From Escherichia coli (GTDB lineage Bacteria; Pseudomonadota; Gammaproteobacteria; Enterobacterales; Enterobacteriaceae): a DNA stretch of 64,000 nt. This document shows, one piece after another, positions 42,801 through 45,800 of the stretch. The first letter of the stretch is position 1. The number at the start of each line of letters is the position of its first letter. The position numbers are program-made. The DNA lies in NCBI RefSeq assembly GCF_036507355.1, contig NZ_AP027877.1, one strand, 5' to 3'.

Positions 42801-45800
42801 AGTGTTCGTCTCTGGAGCATGAAAGCCCGCCCGATACCTTCCCAGAGCCAGGTAAAATTTCGAAAGATGGTTATCGTGTCTGGTTAACATCGCATAACGA
42901 TTTAGGCATTATCCGTTACATGGTCGCCATGGGAACGGCACATTATGTCGTCATGATCGACCCCGCTTCCTTTATTGATGTCATTCCCTATAGCTCATGG
43001 CAAATTGATGCCGCCATTATTGGCAATGCCCATAACGTTGTCATAACCAGCAGCGATGAAATTGCTCAGGGAATTATTACCAGGCTACAAAAAACACCCG
43101 GTGAGCATATCGAAAATAATGGAATCATTTACGATATCCTGCCCTTCCCGGAGATGAATATTTCAATTATCACCTGGGCTTCAACGAAAATGTTGCAGAA
43201 AGGCTGGCATCGGCAAGTCTTTATTTGGTTACCGCTCGGGTTGGTGATTGGCCTGCTGGCAGCGATGTTTGTGCTGCGTATTTTGCGCCGTATCCAGTCA
43301 CCGCATCATCGGCTGCAGGATGCTATCGAAAATCGTGATATTTGCGTGCACTATCAGCCGATTGTCTCCTTAGCCAATGGCAAAATTGTCGGTGCTGAGG
43401 CACTGGCGCGCTGGCCGCAGACAGACGGTAGTTGGTTGTCACCAGATAGTTTTATTCCGCTGGCACAGCAAACGGGCCTTTCTGAGCCATTGACGCTACT
43501 GATTATAAGAAGCGTCTTTGAAGATATGGGCGACTGGCTGCGTCAGCATCCACAGCAGCATATTTCGATCAATCTTGAATCCACCGTGCTCACCTCGGAA
43601 AAAATCCCGCAATTGCTGCGTGAAATGATCAATCACTATCAGGTTAATCCCAGACAGATCGCGCTTGAACTCACTGAACGCGAGTTTGCCGATCCGAAAA
43701 CCAGCGCCCCGATAATTTCTCGCTACCGGGAGGCGGGCCATGAAATTTATCTTGATGATTTTGGTACGGGGTATTCAAGTTTAAGTTATTTACAGGATCT
43801 GGATGTCGACATTCTGAAGATCGATAAATCTTTCGTTGATGCGCTGGAATATAAAAATGTCACGCCGCATATCATCGAAATGGCAAAAACACTGAAACTG
43901 AAAATGGTAGCGGAGGGAATCGAAACCAGTAAACAAGAAGAGTGGCTACGCCAGCATGGCGTGCACTACGGTCAGGGCTGGCTCTACAGCAAGGCATTAC
44001 CGAAAGAAGATTTCTTACGCTGGGCCGAGCAACATTTGTGAATTTTTGGGCTGACGGCACGCCGCACAGCCCGTCACGCTACCTATTCGTCGATGATTGA
44101 CTCGAATCCGCCATAGATCATTCGCTTGCCGTCAAACGGCATGGACTCGCCGAACTCTTTCATCCGTGGGTCCGACATCATCTTTTGATTAGCTGCGTCG
44201 CGGACCTCTTTCGAAGGGTATTCAATCCAGCTAAAGACAACCTCTTCATTCTCTTCCGCTTTCACCGCCATACGAAAATCGGTCACTTTGCCATCCGGCA
44301 CATCGCTGGCCCAGCATTCGACAATACGAAGCGCGCCAAACTCTTTAAACAATGGCGCGGCCTTAGCGGCCATTTCCCGATAGGCATCCTTTTTATCGGC
44401 AGGAACGGCAACCACAAAACCATCAACATACTTCATCAGACATACCTCCGAAGCGTACTGCGCAGCCAGACAATTCTTGCGACGTCAGTTGTGGTTAAAG
44501 TTTAGCCATATTGGGATTTTTTGACGAAACGGTGGGAGGCAGAAATGGGTGGGGGCCCTGCCAGCTACATCCCGGCACACGCGTCATCTGCCTTGGCTGC
44601 TTCCTTCCGGACCTGACCTGGTAAACAGAGTAGCGTTGCGGGAGAACCAACAGAGCCCCCATTGAGAGCGTTGAGAACCAACGCGCAGGCGCATTATCAC
44701 TGCTGCCCCGGCTAATTGCAACCCATTGCGTGCCAGATGCTGGTTTCTTGCGCAATGCGACTTCACTCGGGCGTTTTTCCAGATTATGCTGAAAAATTAC
44801 CTCAGGAAGAAAAGATGGAAAAAGAAGATTCATTTCCCCAACGCGTCTGGCAAATCGTCGCCGCTATTCCCGAAGGCTATGTAACCACTTACGGTGATGT
44901 GGCGAAACTGGCGGGATCGCCCCGCGCCGCGCGCCAGGTGGGCGGTGTGTTAAAGCGTCTCCCTGAAGGCAGCACCTTACCCTGGCACCGGGTGGTTAAT
45001 CGCCACGGCACAATTTCGCTAACCGGACCGGATTTACAGCGTCAGCGACAGGCATTACTGGCAGAAGGTGTGATGGTATCGGGAAGCGGGCAAATCGACT
45101 TGCAGCGTTATCGCTGGAACTACTAACCCTCTCCGGGCGGAGAGGGTTAACGTCGCTTAATATTGCGTAGGAGCTGGAACTGCCGAAGACGGATTCACCT
45201 GAGTTGGTGAAGTCGAAGGTACGGTAGTCGTTGCGCCACCGCTGGCCTGAACCGGCACGGCGGTTTGCTGTACCGGCACCAATGTCAGGTCGGCTTTAGT
45301 TCCGCCCTGGTTGATCACCGGCTGAACGGTATCGGTGATAAATACCAGTTTGTCATTCACGGTAATCGCCGCACTCAACAGAATACGCGCGTTCGGCTGA
45401 ACATCTGCCGGGTTAAATGGCAGAACAAAGCTGAATGGTGACTGTTTACCTTCGGTACGCACCGCTTTCTGCGCCAGCACTTTTGACGGTGCATCGGCTA
45501 ACGACGCGTCAGAAAGTGTCACGGTCAGCACAGCATCAGGCGGCAGTGCGACTTTCTGACGGATCCAGACGGTACCGGAGACATTCGGTTGCTGGATAGC
45601 AGGTTGTTGTGTTGCTGAAATAGACGTATTTGCAGCCGGGGCTGGCGTCTGAATATCCGCGCTTTTATCTGCGCAAGCCGCCAACGCAATCGCAACCGCT
45701 AAACCACTGGCCATGTGCACGAGTTTCATTCATTTCTCCTTATTATCAATGCACCAGCGGGCTAACTTTCCTCGCCGGAAGAGTGGTTAACAAAATAGTA

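What the first reader, a model, noticed from the sequence alone, without database searches (positions are those of the whole stretch)
44547..44740. ffs (4.5S RNA) and atl start are divergent with only about 76 bp between them
The 5' end of ffs (44660, minus strand) and the chosen atl start codon (44737, plus strand) leave a very short shared promoter region. If the upstream ATG at 44716 were the real atl start, the coding region would come within about 55 bp of the ffs transcription start. The atl start assignment and promoter architecture therefore deserve verification.
Basis: seen in the sequence. Interest (0 to 1): 0.2.

Follow-up and report, generated by a model that had tools for sequence, protein, structure and literature searches.

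The report
Misplaced atl start beside ffs promoter
The short gap between the E. coli 4.5S RNA gene (ffs) and the DNA-repair gene atl comes from an over-long reference annotation: atl most likely starts 78 bases further downstream, and the annotated start sits in conserved DNA belonging to the ffs promoter region, which is an ordinary, largely known annotation issue.

Summary
The coordinates are right. Mature ffs is 44547-44660 (-), the K-12-style atl ATG is at 44737, and the gap is 76 bp. Two details are wrong:
- 44716 is TTG, not ATG, and it lies inside the ffs -35 hexamer.
- 44660 is the RNase P-processed 5' end, not the transcription start, which published data place 22-26 nt upstream (about 44686).

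The start that needs correcting lies downstream, not upstream. ATG 44815 gives a 103-aa protein and is supported by:
- A Shine-Dalgarno AGGAAG in front of it, and an ATG conserved in 77 of 80 Enterobacteriaceae loci.
- In-frame stops within 27 nt upstream in 27 loci.
- No codon periodicity in the 78-nt "extension".
- Solved Atl structures that begin at this point.
- NCBI's PGAP annotation of the same 103-aa protein.
- A published N-terminal peptide, MEKEDSFPQR, with Ribo-RET support.

The region 44687-44797 reads as two back-to-back sigma-70 promoters:
- ffs: -10 GATAAT, -35 TTGCAA, plus a conserved upstream block at 44735-44756 that contains the annotated ATG.
- atl: a conserved TTCACT-17-TATGCT promoter with a predicted start near 44797. 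Its K. pneumoniae orthologue has a mapped start site.

The E. coli atl transcription start remains unconfirmed. Interest is low.

The parts
44547..44660 (-). Mature 4.5S RNA (ffs), 114 nt
   Evidence: Rfam RF00169 at 68.1 bits over 44556-44652. MG1655 ncRNA b0455 476448-476561 maps here.
44661..44686 (-). pre-4.5S 5' leader, removed by RNase P. Reported length is 22-26 nt, with the main RNA-seq 5' end at -26, which is G at 44686.
   Evidence: PMC5499578 and PMC7967276. Geometry relative to the -10 hexamer. Majority-base frequency 0.96 across 56 loci.
44668..44684 (-). Hairpin in the leader: GCGUUG-GUUCU-CAACGC
   Evidence: 95.6% of cells paired in 22 distinct sequences. Two pairs have compensatory changes (U-A to C-G). 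0 of 500 shuffles reach the covariation score. A terminal stem-loop in the extended transcript is also noted in PMC7967276.
44687..44698 (-). ffs promoter -10 GATAAT (44693-44698) and G+C-rich discriminator GCGCCT (44687-44692)
   Evidence: Promoter scan. The -10 is invariant in 56 loci; the discriminator scores 0.92.
44716..44721 (-). ffs promoter -35 TTGCAA, 17-bp spacer.
   Evidence: Conservation 0.99 against 0.67 for the spacer.
44735..44756 (.). Conserved ffs-upstream block GATGCTGGTTTCTTGCGCAAT. It lies at -49 to -70 from the ffs start, contains the palindrome TTGCGCAA at 44748-44755, and contains the K-12-annotated atl ATG at 44737. Its function is unknown; it may be a site for an activator of ffs.
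   Evidence: Conservation 0.89 against 0.60 and 0.53 in the flanks. It stays next to ffs, not atl, in genera where about 500 bp is inserted between the two genes.
44737..44814 (+). The 26-codon 'N-terminal extension' of the K-12 annotation. Most likely not translated; it holds the ffs-upstream block, the atl promoter and the atl 5' UTR.
   Evidence: No codon periodicity: variable columns 15/12/12 by codon position, against 26/8/91 in the CDS. In-frame stops in other genera. Indels not in multiples of 3. No SD. No counterpart in solved Atl structures.
44762..44767 (+). Predicted atl promoter -35, TTCACT
   Evidence: TTCAC[AT] or TGTACA in 54 of 81 loci, with a 17-bp spacer in 77 of 81. It travels with atl when ffs is separated.
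44785..44790 (+). Predicted atl promoter -10, TATGCT
   Evidence: TAT[GCT]CT in 68 of 81 loci. Conservation 0.90 against 0.50 for the spacer. The K. pneumoniae orthologue TGTACA-17-TATGCT has a mapped TSS and a 20-nt 5' UTR (PMC3415461 supplement).
44796..44798 (+). Predicted atl transcription start, about MG1655 476310-476312 on the minus strand. Inferred, not measured in E. coli.
   Evidence: Lies 6-8 nt downstream of the -10, by analogy with the K. pneumoniae TSS.
44804..44809 (+). Shine-Dalgarno AGGAAG for the 44815 start
   Evidence: Anti-SD duplex -4.3 kcal/mol, in the top 10% of ATGs in a 10-kb background. Local fold is only -2.4 kcal/mol. The AGGA core has conservation 0.85.
44815..45126 (+). 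atl (ybaZ) coding sequence, 103 aa plus stop. Alkyltransferase-like DNA base-flipping protein.
   Evidence: PF01035 at 94.2 bits. PGAP CDS WP_000409911.1. ATG conserved in 77 of 80 loci. N-terminal peptide MEKEDSFPQR with Ribo-RET (BL21) and REPARATION support (PMC13245402 Table S1 row 105).

Best explanation
ffs and atl are transcribed in opposite directions from two separate, back-to-back sigma-70 promoters packed into about 110 bp.

**ffs side.** The promoter is -35 TTGCAA at 44716-44721, a 17-bp spacer, -10 GATAAT at 44693-44698 and a G+C-rich discriminator. It starts transcription near 44686. RNase P then removes a hairpin-bearing leader of about 26 nt to give the mature 5' end at 44660. 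A conserved 22-bp block at 44735-44756 belongs to the ffs upstream region.

**atl side.** atl is transcribed from its own weak promoter: -35 TTCACT at 44762-44767, a 17-bp spacer, -10 TATGCT at 44785-44790, with a start near 44797. It is translated from ATG 44815, behind the Shine-Dalgarno AGGAAG, to give a 103-aa protein.

**Consequence.** The 129-aa K-12/UniProt model (ATG 44737) is an over-extension whose start codon happens to fall inside the ffs-upstream block. TTG 44716 is part of the ffs -35 hexamer.

**Status of each step.**
- Shown here or in cited data: the ffs identity and promoter footprint, the pre-4.5S 5' end, the 44815 translation start, and the orthologous atl transcription start in K. 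pneumoniae.
- Inferred: the E. coli atl transcription start and the function of the 22-bp block.
For: **Start codon**
- PGAP annotates 44815-45126 as WP_000409911.1, also in a K-12 derivative.
- ATG is conserved in 77 of 80 Enterobacteriaceae loci, and 27 loci have an in-frame stop within 27 nt upstream.
- An open frame with an ATG at the 44737 position exists in only about 15 of 80 loci.
- Variable columns by codon position are 26/8/91 in the CDS but 15/12/12 in the extension.
- The ffs-to-atl distance varies by 2-10 nt between genera, not in multiples of 3.
- Anti-SD duplex is -4.3 kcal/mol at 44815 and +0.6 at 44737. Local folding is -2.4 against -10.9 kcal/mol.
- vpAtl (2KIF) residue 2 aligns with residue 31 of the 129-aa form, and S. 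pombe Atl1 (3GVA) residue 3 with residue 30.
- The TRAINSPOTTER N-terminomics table lists only MEKEDSFPQR (residues 27-36) for b0454, as an alternative start at 476291-476293, with Ribo-RET (BL21) and REPARATION support.
- Peptides in that table keep internal lysines uncleaved. Cleavage after K26 therefore does not explain this N-terminus.

**Promoters**
- The scan finds the ffs promoter.
- The phylogenetic footprint runs: ffs -10 1.00, ffs -35 0.99, upstream block 0.89, atl -35 0.78, atl -10 0.90, with spacers at 0.50-0.67.
- The ffs start at -26 is reported in PMC5499578 and PMC7967276.
- Where about 500 bp separates the genes, the block stays with ffs and the promoter plus SD stay with atl.
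- K. pneumoniae ybaZ has a mapped TSS with a 20-nt UTR downstream of TGTACA-17-TATGCT.
Against: - No E. coli transcription start for the predicted atl promoter could be retrieved.
- Kim et al. 2012 list none for E. coli ybaZ.
- A re-analysis of dRNA-seq and Cappable-seq data reports only a 'negligible' atl-direction transcript said to overlap the ffs transcript by 65 bp. That would start inside ffs, and such an mRNA would carry ATG 44737.
- The atl hexamers match only 4/6 + 4/6 and fall below the scan threshold.
- The frame from 44737 is open in all Escherichia examined, and the ATG is fairly conserved. That conservation sits within a block conserved at the DNA level.
- Ribo-RET support is listed for BL21 only.
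- Absence of a peptide for the long form is weak negative evidence for a low-abundance protein.
- The curated MG1655 record and UniProt P0AFP2 keep 129 aa.
Confidence: 0.85

Rival explanations
1. The K-12 reference annotation is correct. Atl is a 129-aa protein starting at ATG 44737, so its promoter must overlap the ffs promoter core within the 76-bp gap.
For: The curated MG1655 record and UniProt use this start. The frame is open in all Escherichia loci and some Citrobacter, Salmonella and Kosakonia. The ATG lies in a conserved block.
Against: There is no SD (+0.6 kcal/mol) and the context is structured. The extension shows no codon periodicity. Stops and frame-breaking indels occur in other genera. 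The extension is absent from solved Atl structures. PGAP and N-terminomics with Ribo-RET support 44815 only. The conserved block segregates with ffs, not atl. One natural E. coli strain carries an IS3 element inside the extension, and PGAP still calls the 103-aa gene.
Confidence: 0.04
2. Both starts are used, so E. coli makes a major 103-aa and a minor 129-aa Atl proteoform. The long form would be translated from rare longer transcripts.
For: The frame is open in Escherichia. A faint atl-direction transcript starting further upstream is reported. A mirror-image -10, CATTAT at 44692-44697, could give a start near 44704. Alternative proteoforms are common in the TRAINSPOTTER data.
Against: There is no ribosome-binding site at 44737. 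No peptide or Ribo-seq entry exists for it. There is no selective signature of coding.
Confidence: 0.08
3. One reading: translation starts at 44716, giving 136 aa, with a distal promoter.
For: The ORF listing extends to a TTG at 44716.
Against: The codon is TTG, not ATG. It is the ffs -35 hexamer itself. The SD duplex is only -1.7 kcal/mol. All the arguments against 44737 apply as well.
Confidence: 0.01
4. Translation starts at 44815, but in E. coli atl is transcribed mainly from a start inside or overlapping the ffs transcription unit rather than from the conserved TTCACT-17-TATGCT element. The two transcription units would then collide face to face.
For: PMC7967276 reports a 65-bp overlap of the ffs and atl transcripts and suggests antagonism. 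No E. coli TSS for the proximal promoter was found in Kim 2012.
Against: The authors call that signal negligible, and it lies opposite an extremely abundant RNA, where antisense artefacts are expected. No sigma-70-like + strand promoter fits a start inside ffs. The proximal promoter is conserved with fixed 17-bp spacing and has a mapped TSS in K. pneumoniae.
Confidence: 0.15

Closest known systems
E. coli K-12 ffs / pre-4.5S RNA, the classical non-tRNA substrate of RNase P
   Same: The RNA matches MG1655 across the ffs gene (no SNP within 44547-44660). It has the same -10/-35 promoter and a short 5' leader cleaved to the mature GGGGG 5' end.
   Different: Nothing differs.
Alkyltransferase-like (Atl) proteins: V. 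parahaemolyticus vpAtl (PDB 2KIF/2KIM) and S. pombe Atl1 (PDB 3GVA)
   Same: A single PF01035 domain. The active-site Cys is replaced, reading PWHRV. Protein length is about 100-108 aa, and the N-termini align within 3-4 residues of M27 of the long E. coli model.
   Different: The K-12/UniProt model adds 26 N-terminal residues that have no counterpart in these structures.
Reference-genome start codons revised after initiation-site profiling or N-terminomics (for example potA and potB, discussed in the Ribo-RET and TRAINSPOTTER papers)
   Same: The annotated start has no initiation signal, and an in-frame start nearby is supported by Ribo-RET and a peptide.
   Different: Here the shift is large (26 codons). 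The false start falls in the neighbour's promoter-upstream element.
Back-to-back divergent bacterial promoters
   Same: Two opposed start sites about 111 bp apart, with their -35 elements facing each other and a conserved element between them.
   Different: This is not the overlapping, symmetric bidirectional type. A mirror -10 (CATTAT) exists, but its only -35 match is at a 15-bp spacing and no data support it.

Membership tests
Bacterial small SRP RNA (Rfam RF00169) | Covariance-model score at or above the gathering threshold over the full model | tested here: met
   68.1 bits against 40, model positions 1-97 of 97, at 44556-44652 on the minus strand.
Bacterial small SRP RNA (Rfam RF00169) | Conserved domain IV apical helix with the GGAA tetraloop that Ffh binds | tested here: met
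   GGUCAGGUCCGGAAGGAAGCAGCC is present and aligned to the model's apical hairpin. No difference from MG1655 within ffs.
RNase P-processed precursor (pre-4.5S) | The primary transcript carries a 5' leader that RNase P removes | not testable with these tools
   Taken from the literature. The leader is 22-26 nt and accumulates when RNase P is depleted (PMC5499578). The TSS is 26 nt upstream (PMC7967276). The sequence geometry agrees.
Sigma-70 promoter (ffs) | -35 and -10 hexamers at 16-18 bp spacing, conserved, with a mapped start about 7 nt downstream | tested here: met
   TTGCAA-17-GATAAT, 9/12. Hexamers are 0.99-1.00 conserved against 0.67 for the spacer. Published 5' end at -26.
Sigma-70 promoter (atl) | -35 and -10 hexamers at 16-18 bp spacing | tested here: met
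   TTCACT-17-TATGCT, 8/12, below the default scan threshold. The same architecture occurs in about 68 of 81 loci, with a 17-bp spacer in 77.
Sigma-70 promoter (atl) | Experimentally mapped transcription start downstream of the -10 | tested here: inconclusive
   Mapped for the K. pneumoniae orthologue, with a 20-nt UTR. No E. coli TSS was retrievable, and a different, negligible signal is reported.
Alkyltransferase-like protein (Atl) | The DNA-binding domain of O6-alkylguanine transferases (PF01035) as the only domain | tested here: met
   PF01035 at 94.2 bits, covering residues 40-119 of the 136-aa ORF, with no other family.
Alkyltransferase-like protein (Atl) | Acceptor cysteine of the PCHR motif replaced, so there is no alkyl transfer | tested here: met
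   The sequence reads LPWHRVV, where Mycobacterium OGT, aligned at the same position (PDB 4BHC), has PCHRV.
Symmetric bidirectional promoter (shared -10, starts 18 bp apart) | Opposed -10 hexamers offset by 1 bp, with functional starts on both strands | tested here: inconclusive
   The mirror hexamer CATTAT at 44692-44697 has A-11 and T-7, but its only -35 match is at a 15-bp spacing. No start near 44704 could be checked. Not filed under this type.

The most novel reading that the evidence does not exclude
The 22-bp block at 44735-44756 (GATGCTGGTTTCTTGCGCAAT, with the palindrome TTGCGCAA) is conserved across Enterobacteriaceae at -49 to -70 of the ffs promoter. It could be a binding site for an undescribed regulator that sets SRP RNA synthesis and perhaps also shields or represses the adjacent atl promoter. 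The K-12 atl 'start codon' would then be a by-product of that site.
Probability: 0.3. Interest if true: 0.3.

Novelty: already known. Interest (0 to 1): 0.15.

Why it matters
The impact is practical rather than conceptual. The K-12 reference record and UniProt P0AFP2 describe Atl as 129 aa, while RefSeq/PGAP and recent N-terminomics use 103 aa, and both forms sit in public databases on at least 1000 contigs each. Anyone cloning, tagging, modelling or deleting atl from the K-12 coordinates would include 78 bp that appear to be the atl promoter plus an ffs-upstream element. A 'clean' deletion of the annotated ORF would remove conserved DNA 49-70 bp upstream of the start of the essential ffs gene. 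It also shows that mature ends of processed RNAs should not be read as transcription starts when judging promoter spacing.

Tried and rejected
**Literature look-ups that gave nothing**
- Meydan 2019 supplement: not held.
- Nakahigashi 2016 supplements: no ybaZ entry. Per its abstract the reported new sites lie within 60 nt of annotated starts, and 44815 is 78 nt away.
- Cappable-seq supplement: no positions in this region.
- SMRT-Cappable-seq supplement: no entries.
- Conway 2014: no supplements held.
- Thomason 2015: not held.

**Checks that came back negative**
- Rfam at a permissive threshold found no RNA element other than ffs in 44400-44900; the only extra hit was a chance snoRNA match at E = 0.94.
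- I compared the conserved block by eye with the Fis, Ada-box, CRP, PurR and UP-element consensus sequences as I remember them. Only a half-match to a Fis-like G-N13-C site turned up, so I make no assignment.
- The scan's only 'terminator-like' hit, at 44669-44655, lies at the junction of the leader and the mature 5' end. I regard it as a false positive.
- The MarA/RamA/SoxS 'ybaZ' ChIP peak in Salmonella is not evidence for atl regulation, because its motif lies inside ffs.
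Full report
**What is at the coordinates.**
- The window is E. coli. 5424 of 5426 complete genomes carry this region at 95% identity or more.
- It is co-linear with MG1655 in reverse orientation: 11 SNPs and no indels in 1801 bp, with window x equal to MG1655 521108 - x.
- The local gene order is pdeB (+), ybaA (-), ffs (-), atl/ybaZ (+), ybaY (-), tesB (+).
- Rfam finds one RNA, bacterial small SRP RNA, at 44556-44652 on the minus strand (68.1 bits against a gathering score of 40).
- The MG1655 ffs annotation (476448-476561) maps to 44547-44660.
- The MG1655 ybaZ annotation (475982-476371, 129 aa) starts at ATG 44737. The stated 76-bp gap is therefore correct.
- Two details are wrong. 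Position 44716 is TTG, not ATG. And 44660 is the mature 5' end of 4.5S RNA, not its transcription start.

**The ffs side.**
- A consensus scan finds one promoter in 44400-44900, on the minus strand: TTGCAA (44721-44716), a 17-bp spacer, and GATAAT (44698-44693). Shuffled sequence gives 0.4 such hits on average.
- This places the start at about 44686, which is 26 nt upstream of the mature end.
- The literature agrees. RNase P-depleted cells accumulate pre-4.5S RNA, with RNA-seq 5' ends 'primarily at -26' and an older report of 22 nt (PMC5499578).
- A re-analysis of dRNA-seq and Cappable-seq data moves the ffs start 26 bp upstream of the annotated 5' end (PMC7967276).
- In an alignment of 56 Enterobacteriaceae intergenic regions, the -10 is invariant and the -35 is 0.99 conserved. 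The spacer is only 0.67 conserved.
- The leader contains a hairpin, GCGUUG-GUUCU-CAACGC. 95.6% of cells are paired and two pairs have compensatory changes.

**The atl start codon.** The ORF has four in-frame candidate starts: TTG 44716, ATG 44737, ATG 44755 and ATG 44815. The evidence favours 44815.
- *Annotation.* PGAP calls 44815-45126 (103 aa, WP_000409911.1) in the closest genome, in a K-12 derivative and in another strain. Only the curated MG1655 record keeps 129 aa. Both exact sequences circulate in public collections on at least 1000 contigs each.
- *Comparative data.* I fetched 80 loci, one per species. The ATG aligned to 44815 is present in 77. Two Enterobacter loci use an ATG 8 codons upstream, and one metagenome-assembled genome has TTG.
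- 27 loci have an in-frame stop within 27 nt upstream. Only about 15 have an open frame with an ATG at the 44737 position.
- The ffs-to-atl distance differs between genera by 2, 3, 4, 5, 7, 8 or 10 nt.
- *Selection.* In 20 loci that can be compared without gaps, variable columns by codon position are 26/8/91 in the 103 codons. In the 26-codon extension they are 15/12/12.
- *Ribosome binding.* The anti-SD duplex is -4.3 kcal/mol at 44815, in the top 10% of ATGs in a 10-kb background, with an open context (-2.4 kcal/mol). At 44737 it is +0.6 kcal/mol with a -10.9 kcal/mol fold.
- *Structure.* vpAtl (2KIF) residue 2 and S. pombe Atl1 (3GVA) residue 3 align with residues 31 and 30 of the long form.
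- *Experiment.* TRAINSPOTTER (NAR 2026, PMC13245402) Table S1 row 105 lists a single N-terminus for b0454, MEKEDSFPQR. It is annotated 'N-terminal truncation (26aa)', at 476291-476293, with Ribo-RET (BL21) and REPARATION support.
- The long form has K26 just before M27. However, peptides in that table keep internal lysines uncleaved, for example MKAAAKTQKPKR. Tryptic cleavage after K26 therefore does not explain this N-terminus.

**What fills the space between the genes.** The alignment shows alternating conserved and free segments:

| Segment | Window coordinates | Majority-base frequency |
|---|---|---|
| ffs -10 | 44693-44698 | 1.00 |
| ffs spacer | 44699-44715 | 0.67 |
| ffs -35 | 44716-44721 | 0.99 |
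| gap | 44722-44734 | 0.60 |
| upstream block | 44735-44756 | 0.89 |
| gap | 44757-44761 | 0.53 |
| TTCACT | 44762-44767 | 0.78 |
| 17-nt spacer | 44768-44784 | 0.50 |
| TATGCT | 44785-44790 | 0.90 |
| 5' part of UTR | 44791-44803 | 0.55 |
| AGGA | 44804-44807 | 0.85 |
| ATG | 44815-44817 | 1.00 |

- TTCAC[AT] or TGTACA, 17 bp, then TAT[GCT]CT has the geometry of a sigma-70 promoter.
- The -10 form occurs in 68 of 81 loci, a 17-bp spacer in 77, and the -10 ends 24-28 nt before the ATG.
- The K. pneumoniae orthologue has an experimentally mapped start with a 20-nt 5' UTR, directly downstream of TGTACA-17-TATGCT (Kim et al. 2012, PMC3415461 supplement).
- By analogy, the E. coli atl start is near 44797. 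That is downstream of the annotated ATG at 44737.
- There is a natural experiment. In Klebsiella, Yokenella and some Enterobacter, about 500 bp is inserted between the genes. The 22-bp block stays at its fixed distance from the ffs -35, while the promoter and SD stay with atl.
- The block, which contains the annotated ATG and the palindrome TTGCGCAA, therefore belongs to ffs (-49 to -70). I could not assign a factor to it.

**Caveats.**
- I could not obtain an E. coli start site for atl.
- Kim et al. list none for E. coli.
- PMC7967276 reports only a 'negligible' atl-direction transcript said to overlap the ffs transcript by 65 bp. That implies a start inside ffs. The coordinate is in a supplement I could not read.
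- A relaxed scan finds no + strand promoter for such a start. The only + strand candidates are the conserved atl promoter and a mirror image of the ffs -10 (CATTAT at 44692-44697, with a -35 match only at a 15-bp spacing).
- A rare long transcript, and hence a minor 129-aa form, cannot be excluded.

**Verdict.** The tight spacing comes from two conventions: the mature RNA end was taken as a start site, and the reference ORF is over-extended. The locus is an ordinary pair of back-to-back promoters. The corrected start is already used by PGAP and is listed in published N-terminomics. Interest is low. The one small open item is the function of the conserved ffs-upstream block.

Noticed in passing
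L083 1233-2446 (E. coli M7424); insertion point equals window ~44774: An IS3-family element sits between ffs and atl, between the predicted atl -35 and -10 and inside the hypothetical 26-codon extension. PGAP still annotates the same 103-aa protein.
   Followed up: partly
window 44555-44569: A Salmonella ChIP-seq peak for MarA/RamA/SoxS labelled 'ybaZ' has its called motif, GCCCTGCCAGCTACA, inside the ffs gene (PMC10268841). This probably reflects signal at a very highly transcribed gene rather than atl regulation.
   Followed up: partly
window 44660 (MG1655 476448): A genome-wide 5'-triphosphate TSS data set lists the ffs 'TSS' at the mature 5' end in both E. coli (5807 reads) and K. pneumoniae (9971 reads). 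The RNase P product was scored as a primary start (PMC3415461 supplement).
   Followed up: no
window 44668-44684, minus strand: The pre-4.5S leader forms a small hairpin. It is conserved across genera with compensatory U-A to C-G changes, and is broken only in Kosakonia cowanii.
   Followed up: yes
window 44437-44546, minus strand: The scan found no canonical intrinsic terminator between the ffs 3' end and ybaA. ybaA has its own mapped start at about window 44490. How ffs transcription terminates was not examined.
   Followed up: no
window 44692-44697, plus strand: The ffs -10 is nearly symmetric. CATTAT on the + strand is offset by 1 bp and would give an opposed start near 44704, 18 bp from the ffs start. 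Its only -35 match (TTGAGA) is at a 15-bp spacing. Untested.
   Followed up: partly
window ~44787 and ~44813, minus strand: PMC5499578 mentions minor ffs-strand RNA-seq 5' ends at about -127 and -153 from the mature end. These would be antisense to the atl promoter and 5' UTR.
   Followed up: no
L015, L063, L064, L071, L072, L081 (between ffs and atl): In Klebsiella, Yokenella and some Enterobacter, about 500 bp is inserted between ffs and atl. It carries an ORF on the atl strand that ends ...LGLALEFT-like just before the atl promoter. The ORF was not identified.
   Followed up: no
L071, L079 (Enterobacter soli and E. asburiae): These atl orthologues start at an ATG 8 codons upstream of the aligned position, giving 111 aa. 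This matches the 111-aa 'MGMT family protein' entries in the cluster.
   Followed up: partly
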